Below are positions 6,945 through 56,990 of a stretch of DNA of 64,000 nt, piece by piece. A program made the position numbers and the translations under genes. Origin of the DNA: Clostridia bacterium (lineage in GTDB: Bacteria; Bacillota; Clostridia; UMGS1883; UMGS1540). Every line of letters begins with the position of its first letter. Position 1 is the first letter of the stretch. The notes beneath the pieces were generated by a model that was not told the DNA's origin, made no database searches, and worked only from the letters and a program-made list of their open reading frames with translations. Location: NCBI GenBank assembly GCA_045533905.1, contig JAZSIR010000002.1, forward strand, positions 1 through 64,000, read 5' to 3'.

Positions 6945-7736
6945 TTGGATATTTTGCACGATTTACACATACACACAAATATATCGCGGTGCGGACAACC
7001 TTCGGCCACGCCCGCAAAGTATATTGAGCTCGCAAAGGCGCGCGGTATGAAAACCGTCGGCTTTGCAAACCACGTCTGGGACACTGCCGTTTCCCCCGCC
7101 ATCAACAATTGGTACGAAGGGCAGGATATGGCGCCCATTTTAGAAATGGATATCCCGAAAGCAGAAGGCATTCGCGTATTACGCGGCTGCGAAGCTGAAA
7201 TGGACAAAAACGGCGTTTTAGGTCTTTCGGAAGCGGCGGCAAAAAGCCTTGACTATGTGCTTGCGGTACACTCGCACTCCCAGCACGAAGCGGTGATTGA
7301 CGATGCAGTACGCCGCGACCCGAAAAAGCTTGCGGATGTCCTTTGTGAAAGATTTTCTCTCATCACCGAAAATCCTTTGGCTAAATATATTACCGCCATC
7401 GCGCACCCCTTCTTCCCCTCCGGCAACAAAGAGGATTTTGACGAGGTGCTCTTCCGTATTTCCGACGATCGACTCGAAGATCTCTTTGCCGACGCGGTAT
7501 ACCAAAAGATTGCGATTGAATTAAACGCTTCTGCTTTCGCCTCGTATCCGATGCGCGCCATGCACAAAAGCGAACTCTTCCGCGTATATGAAACGGCAAA
7601 GGAATGCGGATGCAAATTCATTTTCGGCACAGATTGCCATGACCCCGAAAAGTACGGCGAGCTTGTGGAAAGGCTCTCCATTTTGGCAGACCTTCTGGAA
7701 ATTACGGAAGCAGACCTTATTCCCCTTGTAAAATAA
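6945..7736 (+). CDS. PHP-domain metallophosphoesterase
   Basis: DLHIHT, GFANH, AHP, ELN, GTDCH metal-binding motifs. Confidence 0.85.
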   Translation: MDILHDLHIHTNISRCGQPSATPAKYIELAKARGMKTVGFANHVWDTAVSPAINNWYEGQDMAPILEMDIPKAEGIRVLRGCEAEMDKNGVLGLSEAAAKSLDYVLAVHSHSQHEAVIDDAVRRDPKKLADVLCERFSLITENPLAKYITAIAHPFFPSGNKEDFDEVLFRISDDRLEDLFADAVYQKIAIELNASAFASYPMRAMHKSELFRVYETAKECGCKFIFGTDCHDPEKYGELVERLSILADLLEITEADLIPLVK

Positions 7737-33816: not shown

Positions 33817-34151
33817 GTGAGTAGGTCGGGCAATCGCGGCAGGGCGCACGCCCTGGTGAGGAAAGTCCGAGCACCAAAGGGCAAGGGTGCCAGATAACGT
33901 CTGGTGGAGGCGACTCTAAGGATAGTGTAACAGAAAACAACCGCCGATTTTTCGGTAAGGATGGAAAGGCGAGGTAAGAGCTCACCGGCGGTATGGAGAC
34001 ATACCGGCCGTATAAACCCCACCCGGTGCAACACCGACAGAAGAGATAAGCCGGCCCGGCACTTCTTCGACCGGTGGCTAAAGCCGTATAGCAATATGCG
34101 GCGTAGATAGATGATTGTCTGAGACAGAACTCGGCTTACAGACTTACTCAC
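33817..34151 (+). ncRNA. rnpB: RNase P RNA (type A)
   Basis: GAGGAAAGTCCGAGC, ACAGAAAACAACCGCC, GGTAAGAGCTCACC, AAACCCCACCCGGTGCAA, ACAGAACTCGGCTTA; ends GTGAGTAGGTC/GACTTACTCAC pair; promoter TTGACA-N17-TATCCT at 33782-33810. Confidence 0.97.
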
Positions 34152-34166
34152 CGTTTTGACCCTTTT

Positions 34167-34190
34167 CCCCGCAGAGCCTGCGGGGTTTTT
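34167..34190 (+). terminator. terminator after rnpB
   Basis: CCCCGCAG-agc-CTGCGGGG-TTTT. Confidence 0.75.
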
Positions 34191-34300: not shown

Positions 34301-34329
34301 TTGACTTTTTCTTTTGTGGCAATTATAAT
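34301..34329 (+). promoter_or_regulatory. sigmaA promoter of the dat-pxp-alr operon
   Basis: TTGACT-N17-TATAAT. Confidence 0.7.
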
Positions 34330-34389
34330 GAGAAAAAACGGCTGAATCGGTAGATTTTGCCATAAAAACCTGTAAGGAGATATGTTATT

Positions 34390-35232
34390 ATGAAGAATCT
34401 TGGCTACTACAACGGCAAATTCGGTGAAATCGAAGAAATGTCCGTTCCGATGAACGACAGAGTCTGCTACTTTGGCGACGGTGTATATGATGCAACCTAC
34501 AGCCGCAACTACAAAATCTTTGCGCTGGATGAGCACATTGACCGTCTTTACAATAGCGCCGCCCTTCTCAAAATTGAAATCGCACAGACCAAGGAAGAAA
34601 TGAAGGCCATCTTAAACGAAATGGTCGCTAAGATGGACACCGGCGAAAACTTTGTATACTGGCAGGTAACCCGCGGCACCGGCAAGCGTAACCACGTATT
34701 CCCGACCGACGGCTCCAAGGCAAACCTCTGGATTGCCATTTCCCCGAAGGATATCGTAGACGTATACAAGAAAATTAAGCTTATCACAATGGAAGACACA
34801 CGTTTCCTCCATTGCAATATTAAGACCTTAAACCTCATCCCGTCGGTTATGGCTTCCCAGAAGGCGAAAGAAGCCGGCTGCGACGAAACGGTTCTCCACC
34901 GCGGTGAAAGAGTTACGGAATGTGCGCACAGCAATGTACATATCATTCGTGACGGTATGTTCGTAACTCCGCCGACAGATCACCTCATCCTCCCCGGCAT
35001 TGCCCGCGCACACCTTATCAAGGCTTGCAAAAAGCTCGGCATTGCAGTAGATGAAACACCGTTTACAATGGATGATCTTATGCATGCAGACGAAGTTATC
35101 GTTTCTTCTTCCGGTTCTCTCTGCCTCGCTGCTGAAATCGTGGACGGCAAGCCCGTTGGCGGCCGTGCTCCGGAAATTCTGAAGGCAATTCAGGACGAAG
35201 TTCTCCGTGAATTCATGGAAGCTACAAACTAA
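34390..35232 (+). CDS. dat: D-amino acid aminotransferase (PLP fold type IV)
   Basis: DR..YFGDGVYD, EHIDRL..SA, YWQVTRG..RNH.FP, NIKTLNL, ILPGI.R; the RNH.FP loop is typical of D-AAT rather than IlvE. Confidence 0.82.
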   Translation: MKNLGYYNGKFGEIEEMSVPMNDRVCYFGDGVYDATYSRNYKIFALDEHIDRLYNSAALLKIEIAQTKEEMKAILNEMVAKMDTGENFVYWQVTRGTGKRNHVFPTDGSKANLWIAISPKDIVDVYKKIKLITMEDTRFLHCNIKTLNLIPSVMASQKAKEAGCDETVLHRGERVTECAHSNVHIIRDGMFVTPPTDHLILPGIARAHLIKACKKLGIAVDETPFTMDDLMHADEVIVSSSGSLCLAAEIVDGKPVGGRAPEILKAIQDEVLREFMEATN

Positions 35233-35244
35233 GGAGAAACGAAT

Positions 35245-36309
35245 ATGACACAAAAGGATATTACCATCTTAAACCTCGGTCAGAGCCTTGATGACCTTGC
35301 AAACCTCGACCCGAGAGGCTACGGCGTTTGCAAAATCCTCTACAAGGCATCGAGAGAGCTTGCGGGCGAGCCGACCTGTATGCACGCTGCTAAAAAGCTC
35401 GTTTCGACCGTAAAAGAAGGCGACTTTGTTTATGTTATGACAGGCTTTGTTCTCCGCCCCTATAAAAAGGCGGAAATGGACGGCATTGTAAGCTCGATGC
35501 TCCTTTGCCGCGCACTTGTAAAAGCCTTTGGTGCAAAGCCGGTTATCATTTGCCCCGAGGATAACTATGAAGCTGTGAAGAACCTCGCCGCATGTGTAGG
35601 TCTTCACCTCTTTGAAGACCTTGAGGACCTTCGGAATATTCCCGTTTTGATGGGCGTAGTATGTTTTACAAAGGATGCAGATAAGGCCGCGGCCGAGGCC
35701 GATGAAATCATCGCCAAGATGCCGCCCAAGGCTGTAGTAAGCATTGAATGCCCGGGCGCAAACGCCAAGGGTGTATACCATAACGCAATTGGTCTCGATG
35801 TAACACCGCTGGAAGCGAAGCAGGATGTTCTATTTGAAAAAATTCAGAAGATGGGCGTTTTGAACATTGCCATCGGTGACCTTGGCAACGAAATCGGCAT
35901 GGGTGCGATTCGTGACGCGCTCTGTGCGCACATCCCCTATGCAAGAGAAGGCGCTTGCAGTTGCGGCTGCGAAGGCGGCCTTGCCGTTACAACCGCGGCT
36001 GATAACCTCATCACCGCCACCGTTTCCGACTGGGGCTGCTATGCTATGATTGCGGCTATGGCATTCCTTCTCGAAAACGTAGATGTTATGCATACCGAGG
36101 AGCTTGAAAAGGCCGCCATTATCTGCGCCAGCCGAAGCGGCATGATTGACATGTATGGTTGGCTCATTCCCGCAGTGGACGGATTCGGTCTTGAGATTAA
36201 TCTCCCCATCGTATCCCTTATGCGCGAAATGGTAAAGAGCGCTCTTTCCCTTCGCGAAACCTGCAAAACTTGGTTTGAAAAGGTAGAGGAATTACATTTC
36301 TTCGGCTAA
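35245..36309 (+). CDS. DUF4392 / D-glutamate cyclase-like domain protein
   Basis: TGF..E.DG, IE.PG...G.YH...G, IGD.GNEIGMG, A.VS.WG motifs. Confidence 0.8.
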   Translation: MTQKDITILNLGQSLDDLANLDPRGYGVCKILYKASRELAGEPTCMHAAKKLVSTVKEGDFVYVMTGFVLRPYKKAEMDGIVSSMLLCRALVKAFGAKPVIICPEDNYEAVKNLAACVGLHLFEDLEDLRNIPVLMGVVCFTKDADKAAAEADEIIAKMPPKAVVSIECPGANAKGVYHNAIGLDVTPLEAKQDVLFEKIQKMGVLNIAIGDLGNEIGMGAIRDALCAHIPYAREGACSCGCEGGLAVTTAADNLITATVSDWGCYAMIAAMAFLLENVDVMHTEELEKAAIICASRSGMIDMYGWLIPAVDGFGLEINLPIVSLMREMVKSALSLRETCKTWFEKVEELHFFG

Positions 36310-36333
36310 GCCGGGAAAGGCTTTGGTACTTTT

Positions 36334-37047
36334 ATGGAAAAGGTAAAATTTCTCCCCTCGGGTGACAGCGCCGTTACGGTTTTGTTCTCTACGGAAATAA
36401 ACGAAGAGACCAACCGCAAAATTCGGTATTTAGCTGCACAGATTGAGAAAAAAGGGATTCGCGGCATCCGCGAAAGCGTGCCCACCTTTTGCAGTATTAC
36501 GATTTATTTTGATCCGTTTGTCATCTCGGAGAAAAAAGTAGAAAGAAAAATCCAAAAGATTATAAAAGCTTATAAGGAAGGCTCCGCCGGCACTCGGCGG
36601 GTCTTCCTTATTCCCGTTTGTTACGACGGGGAGCATGCGCCGGATATGGACGATGTATGCACGCTTTGCGGCCTTACAAAGGAAGAGGTAATCGCCATTC
36701 ACTCCGGCACCGATTATCTTATCTACATGCTCGGCTTTTTGCCGGGTTTCCCGTATCTTGGCGGTATGGACCCGCGCATTGAAGCGCCGCGTCTTGACAC
36801 GCCGCGCACCACGATTTTCGAAGGTGCCGTGGGCATCGGCGGCAAGCAAACGGGGATTTACCCTCTCGCTTCCCCCGGCGGTTGGCGGCTTATCGGGCGC
36901 ACACCCTTTAAGGTTTACGACCCTGAAAGAGAAACGCCGATTCTGTATAAAGCCGGCGACTATATCCGTTTTTATCCCATCACAGAAGCAGAATTTGATG
37001 CGATGCGGCAAAACGGATGCGAAATTGAAATCAGGGAGGAACGATAA
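36334..37047 (+). CDS. pxpB: 5-oxoprolinase subunit B (KipI/AHS1)
   Basis: GDSA, IPVCY...PD, GFLPGFPYLG, GAVGIGG.QTGIYP..SPGGW.LIGRT. Confidence 0.95.
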   Translation: MEKVKFLPSGDSAVTVLFSTEINEETNRKIRYLAAQIEKKGIRGIRESVPTFCSITIYFDPFVISEKKVERKIQKIIKAYKEGSAGTRRVFLIPVCYDGEHAPDMDDVCTLCGLTKEEVIAIHSGTDYLIYMLGFLPGFPYLGGMDPRIEAPRLDTPRTTIFEGAVGIGGKQTGIYPLASPGGWRLIGRTPFKVYDPERETPILYKAGDYIRFYPITEAEFDAMRQNGCEIEIREER

Positions 37048-37994
37048 TGTACGCGATGACAATTCTCTCCCCCGGCCCCCTTTCCACGGTGCAGGATGAA
37101 GGCCGCTTCGGCTATATGAGCACCGGTTTTTCGCCCGGTGGTGCCATGGATACAAAGGCCGCAAAAACCGCCAATATCCTCGTGGGCAATGCTCCTATGG
37201 ATGGCGTAATTGAAATGACAGTTATGGGGCTTTCCGCACAGTTTTCGTGCGATACCCTTGTAGCGATTACCGGTGCCGATATGGTACCCGAACTAAACGG
37301 CGAGGCCGTACCGATGTATCGGGCCATCCCCGTGCATGCAGGCGATACGCTCACGATGAAGCTTGCAAAAAGCGGTATGCGTGCCTATCTCGCTGTAGCC
37401 GGCGGCTTTGACCTTCCCACGAGTATGGGCAGTATGTCCACCAATTTAAAATGCGCGCTTGGCGGCATGGAGGGCAGAAAGCTCCAAAGAGGTGACGTGT
37501 TACCGCTTCGCCGCACCATCCCCTCTTTCCCGAAGGATGTGCGCGCAACTTCTCCCGAAACCTATTCGAAGGCGCTCACAGTTCGCGTGATTTTAGGACC
37601 GCAGGATGACTTTTTCACAAAAAAAGGACTCGAGACTTTCCTATCGTGTGCGTATGTGGTCACCGACAAGTCCGACCGTATGGGCGTGCGACTTGACGGG
37701 GAAAAGATTGAGAACAAAAACGGCGTAGATATTATTTCCGACGGCATCGCGACGGGGTCCATCCAAATCCCTGCCTCCGGCACGCCGATTATTATGATGG
37801 CCGACAGGCAAACGACAGGCGGCTATGCAAAAATCGCCACGGTAATTTCTGCGGACCTTCCCAAAATTGCGCAGGCCGCGCCCGGCACGGAAATCCGCTT
37901 TACGGCTATCTCGCAAAAAGATGCCGTTCGCATTCTCCGAAAAGAAGAACTGAAATTAAAAGCACTCGAATACCGTTTGCTTTTTAAAGATTAA
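37047..37994 (+). CDS. pxpC: 5-oxoprolinase subunit C (KipA/AHS2)
   Basis: PG..STVQD.GR.GY...G....GAMD, GPQDD.F, SDRMG.RL.G, ADRQTTGGYAKI. Confidence 0.95.
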   Translation: MYAMTILSPGPLSTVQDEGRFGYMSTGFSPGGAMDTKAAKTANILVGNAPMDGVIEMTVMGLSAQFSCDTLVAITGADMVPELNGEAVPMYRAIPVHAGDTLTMKLAKSGMRAYLAVAGGFDLPTSMGSMSTNLKCALGGMEGRKLQRGDVLPLRRTIPSFPKDVRATSPETYSKALTVRVILGPQDDFFTKKGLETFLSCAYVVTDKSDRMGVRLDGEKIENKNGVDIISDGIATGSIQIPASGTPIIMMADRQTTGGYAKIATVISADLPKIAQAAPGTEIRFTAISQKDAVRILRKEELKLKALEYRLLFKD

Positions 37995-38008
37995 ACGAGG
38001 TGAAAAGA

Positions 38009-38794
38009 ATGGATTATGCAAAAATGTTACCTTCCGAAGTGCGAAAGCTTATTCGTGAAGAAAAAATCACCGGGCAAACCTCGGGTATGTGCGAAACGTA
38101 TGCCCAGGGCAACCTCTTGATTTTACCCCGCGCCGAGGCGTATGATTTTCTCCTTTTTACACAGAGAAACCCGAAGTCCTGCCCCATTTTGGAGGTTGGC
38201 GATGTGGGTAGCCGCCTTGTAAAGAAAATGGCGGATAACGGGGATATTGCAACCGATATTCCGAAATATCGCGTTTGGGAAAACGGCGTTTTGACCGGTG
38301 AATACACAAACGTTTCGCATTTATGGAGAGATGATTTTGTATACTTCCTCATTGGCTGCTCCTTCTCCTTTGAAGGCGAGCTTCTCGCCTCGAACGTGCC
38401 TGTACGCCACATCGAAGAAGGTAAAAATGTGCCGATGTACCTTACGAACATTCCTTGCGAAGAAGCCGGTATGTTTCACGGCAATCTCGTTGTGAGTATG
38501 CGTCCTATGCCCGCTTCCGATGTTATCCGTGCCGTCAGCATCACTTCTTCCATGCCGCGCGTGCACGGCGCACCAATTCACATCGGTGATCCCGAAAAAA
38601 TCGGTATTCGCGACATTATGAAGCCGGACTTTGGCGACAGCGTAACGATTCATGAAGGTGAAATCCCCGTATTCTGGTGCTGTGGTGTTACGCCGCAGTC
38701 GGTTGTAATGAGTGCAAAGCCGCCCATTGCGATTTCCCATGCACCGGGTCATATGTTTATTACCGATGTCAAAAATTCTTTGTTAAAGGACTGA
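38009..38794 (+). CDS. DUF1445 / YcsI (UPF0317) putative hydro-lyase
   Basis: TSG....QGNL.ILP...A.DF..F..RNPK.CP, DIATD.PKY, GCSFSFE, VVSMRP, HGAP.H.GDP, FW.CGVTPQ, HAPGHM. Confidence 0.92.
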
Positions 38795-38802
38795 TTTTTC
38801 GA

Positions 38803-39585
38803 ATGTTTGCAATAGATCTCAACAGCGACCTTGGCGAAAGCTTCGGCGCCTATAAAATCGGCCGGGATACGGATGTGATTCCGCTCGTTTCCTCGGCAAA
38901 CGTAGCTTGCGGTTTTCACGCGGGTGACCCCACCATTATGGCAGAAACGGCAAAGCTTTGTGCTAGTGCCGGCATCGGCATCGGTGCACATCCCGGTTAT
39001 AATGACCTTGTAGGCTTCGGCAGAAGAAATATGAGCGTTTCCCCGAAGGATGTAAAAAACCTTATTATCTATCAGGTGGGAGCCCTCGATGCTTTCTGCA
39101 AGGCAAATGGCATTTCGCTTTGCCACGTAAAGCCGCACGGCGCGCTTTACAATATGGCCGCAAAAGACGTTTCTCTCGCGGAAGCTATTTGCGAAGGTAT
39201 TTATGCCTACAACCCCTCTCTCATTTTGATGGGTCTTTCCGGAAGCTGTATGATTTCCGCCGCCAAAAAGCTTGGTCTCCCCTATGCCGCCGAGGTATTT
39301 GCCGACCGCGCATATGAAGATGACGGCACACTCGTAGCAAGAACAAAGCCGGGCGCTATGATTTCGGATGAGGATGAAGCCGTCTCCCGTGTTATCGGTA
39401 TGATTAAAAATCATAGCGTGACTTCGATAAACGGCAACGAAATCGAAATTTGCCCCGATTCCGTTTGTGTGCATGGCGACAGCGAAAAGGCGCTTCTCTT
39501 TGTAAAGAAAATTCGTGCCGCGCTGGAAAAGGAAAGCATTGCGATAAAGCCGGTTTCCGAAATCGTCGCAGAAAGGGCGAACTAG
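38803..39585 (+). CDS. pxpA: 5-oxoprolinase subunit A (LamB/YcsF)
   Basis: [29 protein letters not shown]...[28 protein letters not shown]. Confidence 0.96.
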
Positions 39586-39586
39586 T

Positions 39587-40747
39587 ATGGATTCTACACA
39601 CGTATATGAAAAATACAGCCGCACGTTTGCGCGCATTGACCTGGATGCAATTTCGCACAATCTGTCCCAGCTCAAAAGCTGCATTGCACCGGGTGTTCGC
39701 GCTATGGCCGTTGTAAAGGCCGACGGCTACGGGCACGGCAGCGTGCGCGTGGCACGGCACATTGAAGAAGATGTGGATTACTTCGCGGTGGCAGAGCTTA
39801 GCGAAGCCATTATTCTTCGCGAAGGCGGCATACAGAAACCGATTTTAATTCTCTCGTATACGAGTCCCCTCCAGTATGATACGCTTCTTTCCTATGACAT
39901 TACGGCCTCGATTTATAACTACGAAGAAGCCGTGGCACTGTCGGAAGCCGCCGAAAAGATGGGAAAACGCGCCTGTGTACATGCAGTTGTAGATACAGGT
40001 ATGGGGCGTATCGGCGTAAAACCCTCCGCGGAAGGTGCCGATATCATAAAGAACATTTCTCTTCTGCCCGGGCTTTATGTGGAAGGGCTTTTCAGCCACT
40101 ACGCCTGTGCGGATTGCGAGAATAAGTGCGATGCGCTTTCACAAACGGCTCTTTTTGACGCGTTTATCGCGCTTTTATCCGAACGCTCGGTTGAAATCCC
40201 GATAAAGCACATCTGCAATAGTGCCGGTACCATGGATTTTACAAAGCAGTATGATATGTGCCGCCTCGGCATTGCGCTCTACGGGCTTTATCCGTCGGAT
40301 GAGATGGATACGGAGAAAATCGAGCTCCATCCTGCGATGGAGGTTGTCAGCCATGTTGTACATACCAAAACGGTACCGAAAGGCTTCCAGATCGGGTACG
40401 GGCATATTTATACAGCACCCGAAGAGCGCCGCGTGGCCACCGTTTGCATCGGCTATGCGGACGGGTTCAACCGCTGCCTCACAGGCGCCGGATATGTGCT
40501 TATTCACGGTAAAAAGGCCCCGATTGTCGGCAAAGTTTGTATGGACCAGATTATGGTCGATATCACCGACATTCCGGACATTTTAGTAGGTGATCACGCC
40601 GTTATCCTCGGCAAAAACGATGGCGCCGTTCTCTCGGCTGAAGACTTTGGCGCGATGTGCCACAGCTTTAACTACGAAGTGGTTTGCACCTTTATGCCGC
40701 GCGTTGAACGGCTTTACTACAAGGGAGAAACGCTTCTCTCAGAGTAA
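39587..40747 (+). CDS. alr: alanine racemase
   Basis: AVVKADGYGHG (PLP Lys), VDTGMGRIG, GLFSH, GYG, GYADG, GKVCMDQ, YEVVC. Confidence 0.93.
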   Translation: MDSTHVYEKYSRTFARIDLDAISHNLSQLKSCIAPGVRAMAVVKADGYGHGSVRVARHIEEDVDYFAVAELSEAIILREGGIQKPILILSYTSPLQYDTLLSYDITASIYNYEEAVALSEAAEKMGKRACVHAVVDTGMGRIGVKPSAEGADIIKNISLLPGLYVEGLFSHYACADCENKCDALSQTALFDAFIALLSERSVEIPIKHICNSAGTMDFTKQYDMCRLGIALYGLYPSDEMDTEKIELHPAMEVVSHVVHTKTVPKGFQIGYGHIYTAPEERRVATVCIGYADGFNRCLTGAGYVLIHGKKAPIVGKVCMDQIMVDITDIPDILVGDHAVILGKNDGAVLSAEDFGAMCHSFNYEVVCTFMPRVERLYYKGETLLSE

Positions 40748-40962: not shown

Positions 40963-40963
40963 G

Positions 40964-40995
40964 AAGGCAGAAACGAATCGTTTCTGCCTTTTTAT
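40964..40995. terminator. terminator between alr and pdaA
   Basis: AAGGCAGAAACGA-a-TCGTTTCTGCCTTTTT. Confidence 0.8.
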
Positions 40996-53345: not shown

Positions 53346-54137
53346 TTATTCACCAAGCGCCGCCAGCTCTTTTTTGGCGCAGGCAAGAACGAACGGATAC
53401 GTATTCTTCTGCAGAATTTTCCCGTATACATTTCTGGCTTCCTTCAGCTTACCAAGCTTTGCAAGGCTTCTGGCCTCAAAAAGCTGGAGTCTCGCAAGGG
53501 AATGTCTATCCTCAAATCCGCGGCTTCTCGCAGTTTCCAGAGCGTCCAGCGTTTCTTCATACTTTTCGTCCGCATAATAGAGAAGCGCGCGCGAAAACCG
53601 AACGTGCGCAAGCGAAATCGCCTCGCCCGCCTTTTCAAAAAGCGGTTGTCCCTTCGTATAGGCTGCTTCCGCACGGACCAGCTGCCCGTTTTCCGCACAA
53701 AACGCGGCGAGGTTGCTGTAATACATTGCCCTTGAAATCTTATCGGCAGCGGACATATCCATCGCATCCATCACACGGATGGCCTCTCCATACTCACCCA
53801 TCGCCTCATATCCGACAGCAAGGTTTAAAGAAAGCGTTTCCTTTACCGCACGGTTACGCGTTTTTGCGATTGCCTTTTCGGATTCCCGCACAAACTTTTC
53901 CGGGTCTGCTTCCTTATACAGAATGTCAAGAAGCGTATCGGCGAGCTTTCTTCCGCGGACGCTCCGTATGCCGTAAAAGAGTGCAAGCCCCACGGCCAGT
54001 GCCAGAAAAAGCACAATGCCGAGCATCTGCAAATAGCCTCCTCCCAGAAAAATCAGATAGAAGAAGGAAATACCGAGACCAAGACCTACGGGCGCGCCGA
54101 TTGCAAAGCCTATAAACTGACGCATACGATTATTCAT
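53346..54137 (-). CDS. membrane-anchored TPR-repeat protein
   Basis: Two N-terminal TM helices followed by TPR-like helices (NLA..Y...GEY.EA). Confidence 0.75.
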   Translation of the reverse strand: MNNRMRQFIGFAIGAPVGLGLGISFFYLIFLGGGYLQMLGIVLFLALAVGLALFYGIRSVRGRKLADTLLDILYKEADPEKFVRESEKAIAKTRNRAVKETLSLNLAVGYEAMGEYGEAIRVMDAMDMSAADKISRAMYYSNLAAFCAENGQLVRAEAAYTKGQPLFEKAGEAISLAHVRFSRALLYYADEKYEETLDALETARSRGFEDRHSLARLQLFEARSLAKLGKLKEARNVYGKILQKNTYPFVLACAKKELAALGE

Positions 54138-55309
54138 CGTGCGGCCTCCTGCTTAAGTGCCGCAAGGACTGTCTCAAGGCTTTCGCCGGCAGAAAAACGC
54201 TTGTAGATCGCAAGGATGCGCGCGGTATCGGTAAGGCCGCTGATATCCGCAAGCACCTCGTCTACGGTCTTTTCCGTAAGCACATCATCATACTTAAAGC
54301 AAAGTGCCGCCGCGATTGCCGCTTCGATGTAGATGGAATCCACATTCTGTTCCTGACACATACGGAGTGCACCTACGAGGCGGTCGCCACTCGAAAGCTT
54401 ACGGCGAAGGTCACCGCCGACGCGCTTTACCGTGTCGCCAAGGCCGCGGTTTGCAAAGCGGCGGATGAGATCCTGCACGTGTGCATACAGCGCCGCCGTA
54501 TCGCCATTATGGCGTTTGGCAAGGGCAATGGCAGAAGCCGTCATCGCGCGGATGACCAGAAGCTCCACCGTCGGATTCTCAATAGCCTGCCAGATGTATT
54601 CGCACCCTAAAAGGTCACCAAGATACGCCGTCATCGCATGGCCCATATTGTGGATGTAGAGCTTGCGCTCGATATAGTACGAGAACGGTGCATACCAGAT
54701 TACGTTCTTAATCGGCGGAAATTCGCCGCGAACGGCTGCTTTATCAAGCGGCAGAATGTCATACGCTTCCACACAGACGCGAAGCGGATTTCCCTTTTGC
54801 ATTTCGGGCGTCTGCACCGGCACCATACGGCCGATGGACGCTTCCACAAAACCTACAAGGCTATCAAGCTTTTTGGTTTCTGCTTCCTCTAAGTTCTGGG
54901 CGATTAAATCTCTTAAAACCTTGTCGGCACCGATAAGGTTTTCGCAGATGATAATATTAAACGGTGTATCGTTGCCCTCTTCCCAGCGCTTTTTAAGGCC
55001 GCCTGCGATGGGGGCTGCAATAAACTTCAGAATGTTTACGCCAACGGCTGTGGCCATAACGTCTGCCTTTGCAATCGCTTCCGCTACAAGCTCGGGCTTT
55101 TTACCGTCCACACAGGAAATATTCTCTGCCCATTCCTCGCGCACGCCATCCTCCACCAGAATATCTACGGGATAGCGGTGGGAAGCGTTCATAGCCTCAA
55201 TAACCGTATCGTTTACATCTACAAACGATACTTCATAACCGGACTGCGAAAGGAGAAGGCCAATAAACCCTCTTCCAATATTACCGGCTCCGTACATTAC
55301 TGCGCGCAT
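54134..55309 (-). CDS. mtlD: mannitol-1-phosphate 5-dehydrogenase family protein
   Basis: GAGNIGRGFIG, TAVG, CEN, YIERKLY.HN.GH, RF.N..L.D.V.RVG. Confidence 0.82.
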   Translation of the reverse strand: MRAVMYGAGNIGRGFIGLLLSQSGYEVSFVDVNDTVIEAMNASHRYPVDILVEDGVREEWAENISCVDGKKPELVAEAIAKADVMATAVGVNILKFIAAPIAGGLKKRWEEGNDTPFNIIICENLIGADKVLRDLIAQNLEEAETKKLDSLVGFVEASIGRMVPVQTPEMQKGNPLRVCVEAYDILPLDKAAVRGEFPPIKNVIWYAPFSYYIERKLYIHNMGHAMTAYLGDLLGCEYIWQAIENPTVELLVIRAMTASAIALAKRHNGDTAALYAHVQDLIRRFANRGLGDTVKRVGGDLRRKLSSGDRLVGALRMCQEQNVDSIYIEAAIAAALCFKYDDVLTEKTVDEVLADISGLTDTARILAIYKRFSAGESLETVLAALKQEAAR

Positions 55310-55322
55310 TGTTTCTTCCTCC

Positions 55323-56990
55323 TTATACTTCCGTAATGACCGGCAGAATAACCGGCTTCCGTTTTGTTTTTTCAAAAATGAACTCGCCAAGCATATTGCG
55401 GATGGCTGTTTTCATACCGTTCCAGTCGCCATTCCCATGGCTTTTTGCCGAAAGGACGGCATCGGTCACAATGTCCTTCATTTCCTCAATAAGGTCCTCA
55501 CTCTCGCGGACATAGACAAAGCCGCGGGAGATGATATCGGGCCCTGCAAGAATTTCCTTTTCTGCGGAAAGCGTAACCACGGCCACGATAAGGCCTTCCT
55601 CACCGAGATGCTTACGGTCACGAAGCACAATGTTTCCGACATCGCCGACGCCGCTACCGTCTACAAGCACCTGCCCTGCTGCCACATTGCCGCAGACGGC
55701 GGCGCCGTCCTCCGTCATTTCGAGAACTTCGCCGAGGCCCATAACAAATATGTTTTCCGGTGCCACTCCCATAAGCTCACCCAGCCGCGCGTGGCGCACC
55801 AGATGGCGGTGCTCCCCGTGCACGGGGATGAAGTATTTCGGTTTTACAAGACCGAGCATAAGCTTCAGTTCCTCGCTGCAGGCGTGACCTGAAACGTGCA
55901 CTTCGGCAAGCGATTCGTAAATAACCTCCGCACCCTTTTTGAAAAGCTCATTAATAACGGACGAAACGGCTTTTTCATTACCGGGAATGGGATTTGCAGA
56001 TAAGATAACAATATCCCCGTACCCAATTTCCACACTTTTATGGTCCGAAAATGCCATACGGGTAAGAGCGCTCATCGGCTCGCCCTGGCTGCCGGTAGTA
56101 ACAATGACAAGCTGCTGGGGCTTGAAGCGGTTGATATCCTCAATCGGGATAAGCGTTCCACGCGGGATGTGCAGATAGCCAAGCTCTGTGGCCACTTCGC
56201 ACATCGTCAGCATACTGCGGCCCAAAATGGCCACCTTACGCTTCTGGCGGACGGCGGAATTGACAATCTGCTGAATGCGGTGTACATTTGAAGCGAAGGA
56301 AGCTACGATGATGCGCTTATCCGAAGAGTTTTCAAAAATTTCGTCGAAGCGTTCCCCAACGGTGCGCTCACTCATTGTATACCCTGCGCGTTCCACATTC
56401 GTACTGTCGGAAAAGAGCGCTAAAACGCCTGCTTTTCCAAGATCGCCAAAGCGCGTTAAGTTAATCATTTCACCATTTATGGGCGTGCAGTCAATCTTAA
56501 AGTCGCCCGTGTGCACCAAAACGCCGACGGGCGTGTGAATCGCAACGGCAAGTGCCCCTGCGATGCTGTGGTTTACATTGATGAACTCCACCTTGAAGTT
56601 CTGGCCGATTTTCTTCATGGAGCCGGGCTTTACCGTGCAAAGCTCCACCTCCGAAGCCATACCGTGTTCGCGAAGCTTGTGTTCGACGAGCCCCAGCGTC
56701 ATACGGCTACCGTAAATCGGCGCATTGAAGGTTTTGAAAGCATACGGCACGCCGCCGATATGGTCCTCGTGCCCGTGTGTGAGGATGACGCCGCAAACCT
56801 TCTTCCTATTTTGGGCAATATAAGAAGTGTCGGGAATTACAAGGTCAATCCCGAGCATGCTTTCACTTGGGAAGGCCAGGCCGCAATCTATGACCAGGAT
56901 TTCCTCTCCGTACTCGATTACGGTTACATTTTTTCCGATCTCATCGAGCCCCCCCAGCGGAATAATTTTAAGTTTTTCTTGTTTCGACAC
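55323..56990 (-). CDS. rnj: ribonuclease J
   Basis: PLGGL.EIGKN, THGHEDHIG, GSQGEP, HVSGH, PVHGE. Confidence 0.97.
   Translation of the reverse strand: MSKQEKLKIIPLGGLDEIGKNVTVIEYGEEILVIDCGLAFPSESMLGIDLVIPDTSYIAQNRKKVCGVILTHGHEDHIGGVPYAFKTFNAPIYGSRMTLGLVEHKLREHGMASEVELCTVKPGSMKKIGQNFKVEFINVNHSIAGALAVAIHTPVGVLVHTGDFKIDCTPINGEMINLTRFGDLGKAGVLALFSDSTNVERAGYTMSERTVGERFDEIFENSSDKRIIVASFASNVHRIQQIVNSAVRQKRKVAILGRSMLTMCEVATELGYLHIPRGTLIPIEDINRFKPQQLVIVTTGSQGEPMSALTRMAFSDHKSVEIGYGDIVILSANPIPGNEKAVSSVINELFKKGAEVIYESLAEVHVSGHACSEELKLMLGLVKPKYFIPVHGEHRHLVRHARLGELMGVAPENIFVMGLGEVLEMTEDGAAVCGNVAAGQVLVDGSGVGDVGNIVLRDRKHLGEEGLIVAVVTLSAEKEILAGPDIISRGFVYVRESEDLIEEMKDIVTDAVLSAKSHGNGDWNGMKTAIRNMLGEFIFEKTKRKPVILPVITEV

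What the first reader, a model, noticed from the sequence alone, without database searches (positions are those of the whole stretch)
34301..40747. Seven-gene operon dat-DUF4392-pxpB-pxpC-DUF1445-pxpA-alr: candidate D-glutamate / 5-oxoproline stereo-inversion pathway
Seen: seven co-oriented genes with gaps of 0-25 bp behind one sigmaA-like promoter, with no transporter or regulator inside. Established: Alr makes D-Ala; D-amino-acid aminotransferase interconverts D-Ala + 2-oxoglutarate and pyruvate + D-Glu; PxpABC opens 5-oxo-L-proline to L-Glu using ATP; mammalian D-glutamate cyclase (DGLUCY) carries DUF1445 and DUF4392 domains and makes 5-oxo-D-proline. Inference: the two DGLUCY domains occur here as separate genes between a D-Glu-forming module and oxoprolinase. 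This suggests D-Glu -> 5-oxo-D-Pro -> (epimerisation by one DUF, or a D-tolerant Pxp) -> L-Glu, an ATP-driven, MurI-independent route that funnels D-amino-acid nitrogen into L-Glu or controls the D-Glu pool. I know of no description of this full combination in bacteria.
Basis: partly seen in the sequence, partly recalled or inferred. Interest (0 to 1): 0.75.

Follow-up and report, generated by a model that had tools for sequence, protein, structure and literature searches.

The report
Operon flipping D-glutamate to L-glutamate
A spore-forming bacterium in which no glutamate racemase was found packs its only alanine racemase and a D-amino-acid-transaminase-like gene into one gene string with five enzymes that likely turn D-glutamate back into L-glutamate through a ring intermediate, which would give two long-unexplained protein families a testable job.

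Summary
Observation confirmed: seven co-oriented genes, gaps -1 to 24 bp, conserved sigma-A-type promoter. The set recurs in 24 of 45 well-flanked Clostridia loci, in two gene orders. It is two modules. dat+alr is the only D-Glu/D-Ala source found in this genome (no MurI, no MurL), and two sister genomes keep dat-alr alone. The five inner genes do not replace MurI: of 50 carriers, 26 have MurI and 10 a MurL-MurD2-like pair. That favours flow from D-Glu to L-Glu: cyclase (PF14336, six metal ligands intact), an inversion step, then PxpABC. DUF1445 is the best inversion candidate: two near-invariant cysteines (95 of 96), fused to or beside both unrelated 5-oxoprolinase types, and a fold matching the 2-oxoglutarate-sensing NrpR domain (Z 9.8). 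Against: mouse DGLUCY carries this domain yet yields 5-oxo-D-proline. No chemistry was tested. The parts and the split are in print; the pathway was not found in ten searches, but four key papers were not held. This scan has reported the same operon several times on other DNA; the MurI/MurL/Dat breakdown and the NrpR-fold, two-cysteine lead were obtained here.

The parts
34301..34329 (+). sigma-A-type promoter TTGACT-N17-TATAAT, 60 nt before dat
   Evidence: conserved in 6 of 7 same-genus relatives by strict pattern, seventh with 18-nt spacer; not mapped by RNA
34390..35232 (+). dat-like PLP fold IV transaminase, 280 aa; carboxylate trap Y33/R100/H102 and K145 kept, K35 position is Tyr
   Evidence: (TIGR01121 235.5 bits, under cut-off 277.45)
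35245..36309 (+). PF14336/DUF4392 metalloenzyme, 354 aa, likely D-glutamate cyclase; E77 D79 E168 D212 E216 D312; extra CxCxC at 238-242
36334..37047 (+). pxpB, 5-oxoprolinase subunit B
   Evidence: TIGR00370 216 bits over cut-off 145.55
37047..37994 (+). pxpC, 5-oxoprolinase subunit C
   Evidence: TIGR00724 329.7 over 230.2; NF045499 267.2 under 500
38000..38794 (+). PF07286/DUF1445 (YcsI/PxpI family), 264 aa, C120 and C228 near-invariant, NrpR-NRD-like fold; candidate 5-oxoproline epimerase
38803..39585 (+). pxpA, 5-oxoprolinase subunit A; only copy found in the genome
   Evidence: NF003814 367.7 over 226
39587..40747 (+). alr, alanine racemase, K44 and Y271; only full-length Alr found in the genome
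   Evidence: TIGR00492 360.6 over 168
40963..40991 (+). terminator-like hairpin between alr and the convergent deacetylase gene
   Evidence: 13-pair stem, T run; such sites are not enriched over shuffles in the region as a whole (16 vs 14.5)
33818..34185 (+). RNase P RNA and its terminator: upstream boundary, not part of the operon
   Evidence: RF00010 276.5 bits

Best explanation
The operon joins a dat-alr pair, which is the only source of wall D-alanine and likely of D-glutamate found in this genome, to a five-gene module that likely converts D-glutamate to L-glutamate at the cost of one ATP. Steps: Alr interconverts L- and D-Ala (family-level assignment, strong). Dat moves the amino group from D-Ala to 2-oxoglutarate, giving pyruvate and D-Glu (inferred from motif). 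MurD taps that D-Glu for peptidoglycan. The PF14336 metalloenzyme closes surplus or recycled D-Glu to 5-oxo-D-proline (inferred from mouse DGLUCY; about 0.75). DUF1445 inverts C2 of the lactam with its two cysteines as acid and base, giving 5-oxo-L-proline (hypothesis; about 0.4). PxpABC opens it to L-Glu with ATP (established for the family). Net: alanine + 2-oxoglutarate + ATP -> pyruvate + L-glutamate, a one-way drain that salvages D-amino-acid nitrogen and caps the D-Glu pool.
For: Supply role: no PF01177 in G000 (95.5% complete) or in 8 of 8 same-genus genomes, close dat in all 9; 12 of the 13 other genomes of the family have PF01177, and the one that lacks it (G013) has a close dat; MurL not found in G000 or G001-G008, G013; murC/D/E/F present. 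Modularity: dat-alr adjacent without cassette in G005, G007, nested among cassette carriers in a quick dat tree. Not a supply cassette: of 50 carriers 26 have MurI, 10 a MurL-like gene, 13 only a Dat homologue, 1 none found; MurL-like lies beside a MurD-like gene in 10 of 10; MurD2 uses L-Glu and barely D-Glu (PMC8788868, passages); 5 of 5 Clostridium-type carriers have a second alr as well as MurI. Cyclase: all six TON_0340 metal ligands invariant in 78 sequences; mouse DGLUCY makes 5-oxo-D-proline. DUF1445 tied to 5-oxoproline: fused to PF14336 in 49 (+5 with a MurD-like piece), to OPLAH-type oxoprolinase in 10, to PxpC in 3 of 100 long homologues; beside OPLAH-type or Pxp genes on 5 of 6 plasmid stretches opened that show it (not in 55). 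C120+C228 in 66 of 66 locus ORFs and 95 of 96 long homologues, each between a strand and a helix start. Fold match to NrpR NRD: Foldseek E 7.9e-6, Z 9.8, rmsd 4.2, 168 aligned; NrpR binds 2-oxoglutarate (PMC11957540, passage). Single pxpA in G000 and 5 of 5 Clostridium-type carriers, so the normal L-specific role has no other candidate. Same cluster logic in Pseudoalteromonas CF6-2: DUF1445-pxpA-PF14336-Dat-like. ANTAR-like hairpin in 21 of 58 dat leaders vs 0.46 +/- 0.65 in shuffles (pattern set after seeing hits), which would fit nitrogen control.
Against: No activity was measured. Mouse DGLUCY contains DUF1445 yet was reported to give 5-oxo-D-proline with no L-glutamate, and humans excrete mostly the D form; bird and amphioxus DGLUCY keep both cysteines (5 of 5), so my expectation that animals had lost one failed (mouse and human not checked). 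Pfam names PF07286 itself 'D-glutamate cyclase'; which half is catalytic is not settled in what I read. The NRD fold is known as a sensor, not an enzyme. Dat falls under the TIGR01121 cut-off and lacks the K35-type residue linked to 2-oxoglutarate binding. A constitutive drain next to the only D-Glu source needs kinetic separation from MurD that is unshown. 10 of 14 other PF14336-positive class genomes show none of the other six genes near it and 4 of 14 had no PF07286 match. The three cassette-only MurL genomes carry Asp, not Glu, at the recalled MurD2 specificity position, and all MurL-like hits are far under the Xanthomonadales cut-off. The 50 carriers are mostly metagenome bins of unstated completeness and are related, so absences are soft and counts are not independent. 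TON_0340 was read as a weak phosphatase.
Confidence: 0.5

Rival explanations
1. Two parallel repair or disposal systems with no inversion: PxpABC clears 5-oxo-L-proline, while PF14336 with DUF1445 as partner or ligand-sensing subunit interconverts D-Glu and 5-oxo-D-proline (excreting it, or reopening it to D-Glu), as the animal fusion does.
For: Mouse enzyme with both domains gives the D lactam and no L-Glu (14, 124, 125); animal homologues keep both cysteines; 49 DUF1445-PF14336 fusions; NRD-like sensor fold; PF14336 often sits away from pxp genes.
Against: DUF1445 also travels with, and is fused to, both oxoprolinase types without PF14336, which a mere cyclase partner does not explain; tight linkage of cyclase and Pxp in 41-43 of 45 loci and with Dat across phyla; discarding a C5-N compound is costly.
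Confidence: 0.25
2. PF14336 (or DUF1445) is an accessory of PxpABC chemistry, for example a Mn-dependent hydrolase of a phosphorylated glutamate or oxoproline intermediate, or these PxpABC accept both enantiomers so that no epimerase is needed.
For: TON_0340 has Mn-dependent phosphatase activity (kcat/KM 1.9e2 on AMP; PMC5132392); Pxp is thought to go through phosphorylated intermediates (PMC13274462 passage); PxpC here is under the NF045499 cut-off.
Against: That activity is very low; pxpABC works without either DUF in C. difficile; opening the D lactam without inversion would return D-Glu, a futile cycle; does not explain dat and alr linkage.
Confidence: 0.12
3. The cassette runs L to D: L-Glu is cyclised, inverted and opened with ATP to D-Glu, replacing MurI.
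For: All 7 PF14336-positive genomes of the window's family lack PF01177; 24 of 50 carriers lack MurI against 45 of 399 in the class.
Against: G001, G005, G007 lack both MurI and cassette but have dat; 26 carriers have MurI and 10 have MurL-like genes; needs both cyclase and Pxp to have the opposite stereospecificity to their characterised relatives.
Confidence: 0.08
4. Unrelated housekeeping genes (dat, alr) and an ordinary pxp operon came together by chance insertion.
For: dat-alr and the cassette each occur alone.
Against: The seven genes persist in two shuffled orders, with alr inside the cassette in the Clostridium-type order; an independent Dat-like gene joins the same families in Pseudoalteromonas.
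Confidence: 0.03

Closest known systems
Mammalian D-glutamate cyclase DGLUCY / C14orf159 (Ariyoshi 2017, PMC5339696; saw abstract, results, passages, supplement passages)
   Same: Both domains, DUF1445 and DUF4392, are encoded; metal ligands and DUF1445 cysteines are shared with bird and amphioxus homologues.
   Different: Separate, non-adjacent genes; embedded with an ATP-dependent oxoprolinase, Dat and Alr; bacterial PF14336 subfamily has an extra CxCxC; the mouse enzyme stops at 5-oxo-D-proline.
PxpABC 5-oxoprolinase loci, e.g. B. subtilis kip/pxp region with pxpI (passages in bioRxiv 2024.05.01.592088 and PMC13274462; Niehaus 2017 itself not held)
   Same: pxpA, pxpB, pxpC plus a DUF1445 gene (pxpI = ycsI identity recalled; PF07286 rings in B. 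subtilis).
   Different: No transporter or regulator; adds PF14336, Dat and Alr.
TON_0340 of Thermococcus (PMC5132392; saw parts 1-3 of 4)
   Same: PF14336 fold, six acidic metal ligands.
   Different: Read there as a weak Mn phosphatase of unknown substrate; 270 aa without the CxCxC insert; D-Glu was not among the substrates in the parts read.
Alr + D-amino-acid aminotransferase route to wall D-Glu (PMC8788868 passage)
   Same: Supplies D-Glu from 2-oxoglutarate where MurI is missing.
   Different: Here co-located with a predicted D-Glu-consuming module; K35-type residue absent.
DgcN/DgcA D-glutamate pathway of Pseudoalteromonas CF6-2 (Yu 2023; seen only as a citation and one passage in PMC12363236; chemistry recalled)
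   Same: An energy-spending detour that derivatises D-Glu, racemises the derivative and releases L-Glu: works like the proposed route.
   Different: N-acetylation rather than lactam formation; unrelated proteins. The same strain also carries a DUF1445-pxpA-PF14336-Dat-like cluster.
NrpR NRD domain (PDB 3NEK; PF01995)
   Same: Best non-family fold match of DUF1445 by two programs.
   Different: 8-12% identity, rmsd 4.2; NrpR is a 2-oxoglutarate-sensing repressor with a DNA-binding part that DUF1445 lacks.

Membership tests
D-glutamate cyclase DGLUCY | PF14336 domain with six acidic metal ligands | tested here: met
   E77 D79 E168 D212 E216 D312 invariant in 78 of 78
D-glutamate cyclase DGLUCY | DUF1445 and DUF4392 in one polypeptide | tested here: not met
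   separate genes, pxpB and pxpC between them; filed as 'works like', not as a member
D-glutamate cyclase DGLUCY | D-Glu to 5-oxo-D-proline activity | not testable with these tools
   needs assay
Canonical D-amino-acid transaminase | F26, Y31, [VA]33, xYxQ, RxH and catalytic Lys (motif table, PMC10003956) | tested here: met
   F28, Y33, A35, Y90-x-Q92, R100-x-H102, K145
Canonical D-amino-acid transaminase | [KRPT] at position 35, and TIGR01121 cut-off | tested here: not met
   Tyr37; 235.5 < 277.45 bits; still the best family by far, BCAT models score 154 or less
Canonical D-amino-acid transaminase | D-Ala:2-oxoglutarate transamination | not testable with these tools
   needs assay
PxpABC 5-oxoprolinase | PxpA, PxpB, PxpC family genes together | tested here: met
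   NF003814, TIGR00370, TIGR00724 over cut-off; stricter NF045499 under cut-off
PxpABC 5-oxoprolinase | ATP-dependent, L-specific ring opening | not testable with these tools
   needs assay
Alanine racemase | TIGR00492 cut-off; PLP lysine and second-base tyrosine (roles recalled) | tested here: met
   360.6 > 168; K44, Y271
Two-cysteine PLP-independent racemases/epimerases (DapF, proline racemase, MurI) | two conserved cysteines at helix starts (feature recalled) | tested here: met
   C120, C228 in 66 of 66 and 95 of 96; predicted strand-Cys-helix setting
Two-cysteine PLP-independent racemases/epimerases (DapF, proline racemase, MurI) | DapF-like or Asp/Glu-racemase fold | tested here: inconclusive
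   top matches are the family's own structures and NrpR NRD; not filed as a member
Two-cysteine PLP-independent racemases/epimerases (DapF, proline racemase, MurI) | thiols facing across one cleft; racemase activity | not testable with these tools
   no coordinates were available to scripts; measurable on PDB 2PIF/3DB9
NrpR regulators | NRD fold | tested here: met
   Z 9.8, rmsd 4.2, 168 aligned, next unrelated row 5.3; Foldseek E 7.9e-6
NrpR regulators | DNA-binding domain | tested here: not met
   single 264-aa protein, only PF07286 found

The most novel reading that the evidence does not exclude
DUF1445 (YcsI/PxpI, and the N-terminal half of animal DGLUCY) is a two-cysteine 5-oxoproline epimerase built on the NrpR 2-oxoglutarate-sensor fold, and with PF14336 and PxpABC forms an ATP-driven, one-way D-to-L glutamate converter that lets bacteria assimilate alanine and D-amino-acid nitrogen through D-glutamate, under ANTAR-type nitrogen control in many Clostridia.
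Probability: 0.35. Interest if true: 0.85.

Novelty: new variant of a known kind. Interest (0 to 1): 0.62.

Why it matters
It gives a cheap, direct test for two families with solved structures and no settled bacterial function (DUF1445/YcsI and DUF4392), and for the unexplained N-terminal half of human DGLUCY. [quoted passage not shown] It also shows three interchangeable wall D-Glu solutions (MurI, Dat, MurL-MurD2-like) among Clostridia; MurL was listed only for some Proteobacteria and Actinobacteria in the review passages read.

Tried and rejected
Idea that the cassette is tied to loss of MurI: true in the window's family, rejected class-wide (14 of 14 other PF14336 genomes had a PF01177 match; 11 of 14 a MurI-type match by my reading of the list; 26 of 50). 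Idea that animal DGLUCY lost one cysteine: rejected for 5 of 5 named animal proteins. Internal two-fold repeat of DUF1445 by profile comparison: none (probability under 1%, shallow alignment). DapF/proline-racemase-type fold was not among the rows listed. No NRD protein could be obtained for a residue-level comparison: PF01995 in 0 of 301 phylum genomes, PDB profile search did not reach 3NEK, structure paper not held. Atlas search gave no usable hit. Search for PF14336 fusions over 620 aa found none (weak evidence, and later showed such fusions). Displacement of DUF1445 by a hydantoin/Asp-Glu racemase: one plasmid case only, an EutA-like gene; not pursued. No RNA holder was listed for the operon. 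Alanine dehydrogenase is in G000 but 0 of 4 other genomes, so an ammonia-assimilation loop through Ald is not general. The careful dat tree did not finish; the quick tree was used, with four duplicate loci and short hits left out, and its CF6-2 row is mislabelled as lacking the cyclase. Binding between the two DUF proteins was not modelled and stays open. Literature: ten searches showed no paper on this pathway or on DUF1445 activity; one search was swamped by unrelated words and only 40 of 269 rows were seen; Niehaus 2017, Yu 2022, Yu 2023 and Wisedchaisri 2010 were not held, and Katane 2018 (recalled) did not appear, so a published ycsI phenotype or domain mapping may exist unseen; bioRxiv supplements are closed.


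Full report
1. Observation. Pfam and NCBIfam give class IV aminotransferase, PF14336 (DUF4392), PxpB, PxpC, PF07286 (DUF1445), PxpA and Alr. The string is bounded by RNase P RNA with its terminator upstream and a hairpin before a convergent deacetylase gene. The promoter box at 34301-34329 recurs before dat in 6 of 7 same-genus relatives, with an 18-nt variant in the seventh. The host is a spore-forming member of Clostridia, judged from sporulation genes in the window and the labels of the nearest homologues.

2. This genome. It has murC, murD, murE, murF and so should need D-Glu. No Asp/Glu racemase family member was found (genome 95.5% complete; the control rang in 10 of 14), no MurL. The operon's alr is the only full Alr; the only other class IV aminotransferase is an IlvE. 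The same holds across the genus: PF01177 0 of 9, close dat 9 of 9, PF14336 6 of 9; of the other 13 family genomes 12 have PF01177, and G013, which lacks it, has dat at 80% and the cassette. So dat+alr is the only wall supply found. The transaminase keeps F28, Y33, A35, Y90xQ92, R100xH102 and K145, matching five of six elements of the canonical motif table in PMC10003956 (passages), but has Tyr at the K35 position and scores under the TIGR01121 cut-off.

3. Two modules. G002, G003, G006, G008 and G004 (over two contigs) have all seven genes; G005 and G007 have dat directly followed by alr, with no PF14336 or PF07286 match in the genome; G013 has the five inner genes apart from dat. In a quick dat tree G005 and G007 sit among cassette carriers, which points to loss (careful search unfinished). 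The 80 best of 540 genome loci (four duplicate relatives already fetched) give, for the 45 with at least 2 kb upstream and 7 kb downstream: dat 33, pxpB 42, pxpC 42, DUF1445 43, pxpA 41, alr 28, all seven 24. Two orders occur: the window's, and dat-PF14336-DUF1445-pxpA-alr-pxpB-pxpC, often followed by accB-accC, mostly in Clostridium. In an even class sample PF14336 is rare (16 of 399 over cut-off), as is close dat (20 of 399), while MurI is in 354 of 399.

4. Direction. I searched 50 of the 80 carrier genomes, chosen for longer flanks and spread. MurI-type matches: 26 (25 over cut-off, one just under); 24 without. Of those 24, 10 have a MurL-like gene, in 10 of 10 beside a MurD-like gene; 13 have a Dat homologue only; one (G489) had none found. 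Four MurL genomes carry the full seven genes and a single alr; three carry only the five inner genes with no Dat found. MurD2 ligates L-Glu and has extremely low activity with D-Glu (PMC8788868, passages), so such cells would need no free D-Glu; a cassette kept there is better read as consuming D-Glu than making it. Caveats: the hits are 230-277 bits against a cut-off of 700, the three cassette-only genomes have Asp at the recalled specificity position, and completeness of these bins is not given. Five of five Clostridium-type carriers tested have a second alr and one pxpA besides MurI: there the operon is surplus to wall supply. A hairpin with an AAnGnn loop (ANTAR-type; consensus recalled, lead from e1-5179485) lies in 21 of 58 dat leaders, 0 on the reverse strand, 0.46 +/- 0.65 in 100 shuffles (pattern fixed after seeing the hits); the window's own leader lacks it, as fits a housekeeping role here.

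5. The two DUF proteins. PF14336: the six metal ligands of TON_0340 (PMC5132392, parts 1-3) map to E77, D79, E168, D212, E216, D312 and are invariant in 78 aligned sequences. That paper found only weak phosphatase activity and suggested the animal fusion serves sequentially linked steps. Mouse DGLUCY, with both domains, makes 5-oxo-D-proline from D-Glu and no L-Glu (PMC5339696). Elsewhere in Clostridia PF14336 lies near glutamate dehydrogenase (2 loci), wall amidase/M15 peptidase genes (3), mupG (1) and TAXI-type transporters (2) among 15 loci, which fits glutamate and wall recycling but shows that it often stands without pxp. DUF1445: among 100 long homologues, 49 are fused to PF14336 alone, 5 to PF14336 plus a MurD-like piece, 10 to a whole OPLAH-type 5-oxoprolinase, 3 to PxpC (some metagenomic fusions may be artefacts). 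On plasmids it sits by pxp genes or by an OPLAH-type gene with glutamate dehydrogenase, not. Following two unrelated oxoprolinases ties it to 5-oxoproline. C120 (GCSF) and C228 (CGVT) are present in 66 of 66 locus ORFs and 95 of 96 long homologues that cover both, each between a strand and a helix start in a model of pLDDT 83. Both fold searches put the NrpR NRD domain first outside the family (E 7.9e-6; Z 9.8, rmsd 4.2, 168 residues), and NrpR binds 2-oxoglutarate (PMC11957540, passage). A cleft for a five-carbon acid with two thiols is what a lactam epimerase would need, and the C2 proton of an N-acylated residue is easier to remove than that of free glutamate (general chemistry). But the geometry was not measured, the fold is known as a sensor, and animal homologues keep both cysteines while the mouse enzyme was not seen to give L products.

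6. Mechanism and odds. Most likely: L-Ala <-> D-Ala (Alr); D-Ala + 2-OG <-> pyruvate + D-Glu (Dat); D-Glu to MurD, or D-Glu -> 5-oxo-D-Pro (PF14336) -> 5-oxo-L-Pro (DUF1445) -> L-Glu (PxpABC, ATP). Shown: gene content, linkage, residues, absences as found. Inferred: every activity. Odds 0.5 overall; parallel repair without inversion 0.25; accessory or D-tolerant Pxp 0.12; L-to-D supply 0.08; chance 0.03.

7. Known versus new. Each part has a characterised relative. pxpI in the B. subtilis kip region is mentioned in bioRxiv 2024.05.01.592088 (passages), and split GLUCM homologues in gut bacteria are tabulated in PMC12547972 (passage: 0 full-length, 6 split). The D-Glu-using strain Pseudoalteromonas CF6-2 carries DUF1445-pxpA-PF14336-Dat-like genes, but its two papers were not held. 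Ten searches showed no description of the pathway or of DUF1445 activity. Verdict: real, conserved, a new arrangement of known enzyme kinds with one possibly new enzyme; interest 0.62.

Noticed in passing
L184, L185, L186, L191, L203-L209 (G449, G444, G447, G027, G461, G463, G466, G492, G484, G491, G472): MurL-like genes beside MurD2-like genes in Clostridia where no MurI was found, including 6 of 6 genomes of genus g14; the review passages read list MurL only in some Proteobacteria and Actinobacteria.
   Followed up: partly
leaders of dat in 21 of 58 loci, e.g. L074 about 78 nt before the start: ANTAR-type hexaloop hairpin, in L074 overlapping a leader terminator; absent from the window's own leader.
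   Followed up: partly
window 35245-36309, residues 238-242: CxCxC motif in the long PF14336 subfamily (120 of 120 near homologues, 115 of 128 representatives), not in the animal fusions checked; possible extra metal or redox site.
   Followed up: partly
P0314, P0316, P0322, P0324, P0326, P0328: DUF1445 (+PF14336) fused to a MurD-like module.
   Followed up: no
P0319, P0320, P0321, P0327 and 11 more: DUF1445 fused to the PF01035 methylguanine-methyltransferase DNA-binding domain in 15 of 100 long homologues, one labelled Cafeteria; unexplained.
   Followed up: no
L074:2345-4168 and 9 of 45 loci: accB-accC (biotin carrier and carboxylase) follow pxpC in the Clostridium-type order; also on plasmid pxp loci.
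   Followed up: no
L075, L076, L077, L080, L082: DUF3870 gene directly upstream of PF14336 in 5 of 15 class loci.
   Followed up: no
L089:6593-11691: In Pseudoalteromonas CF6-2 the cluster follows a GH3 glycoside hydrolase and lies near an M15 peptidase, suggesting wall recycling.
   Followed up: partly
L093:7821-11259: Two PF14336 genes in one operon with an amino-acid ABC transporter on a rhizobial symbiosis-type plasmid.
   Followed up: no
G199, G272, G368, G284, G035, G489: No MurI-type and no MurL match; G284 has a Dat homologue, the wall D-Glu source of the others is unexplained (some have other PF01177 members).
   Followed up: partly
G000:C11:111000-112106 and C11:80385-81122: Alanine dehydrogenase and glutamate dehydrogenase in the window's genome; with the operon, Ald would give an ammonia-assimilation loop of GS-GOGAT-like cost.
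   Followed up: partly
window 54137-55390 (-): Mannitol-dehydrogenase-family gene between RNase J and hydrogenase maturation genes; 53349-54137 (-) and 6945-7736 (+) had no Pfam match at 1e-10.
   Followed up: no
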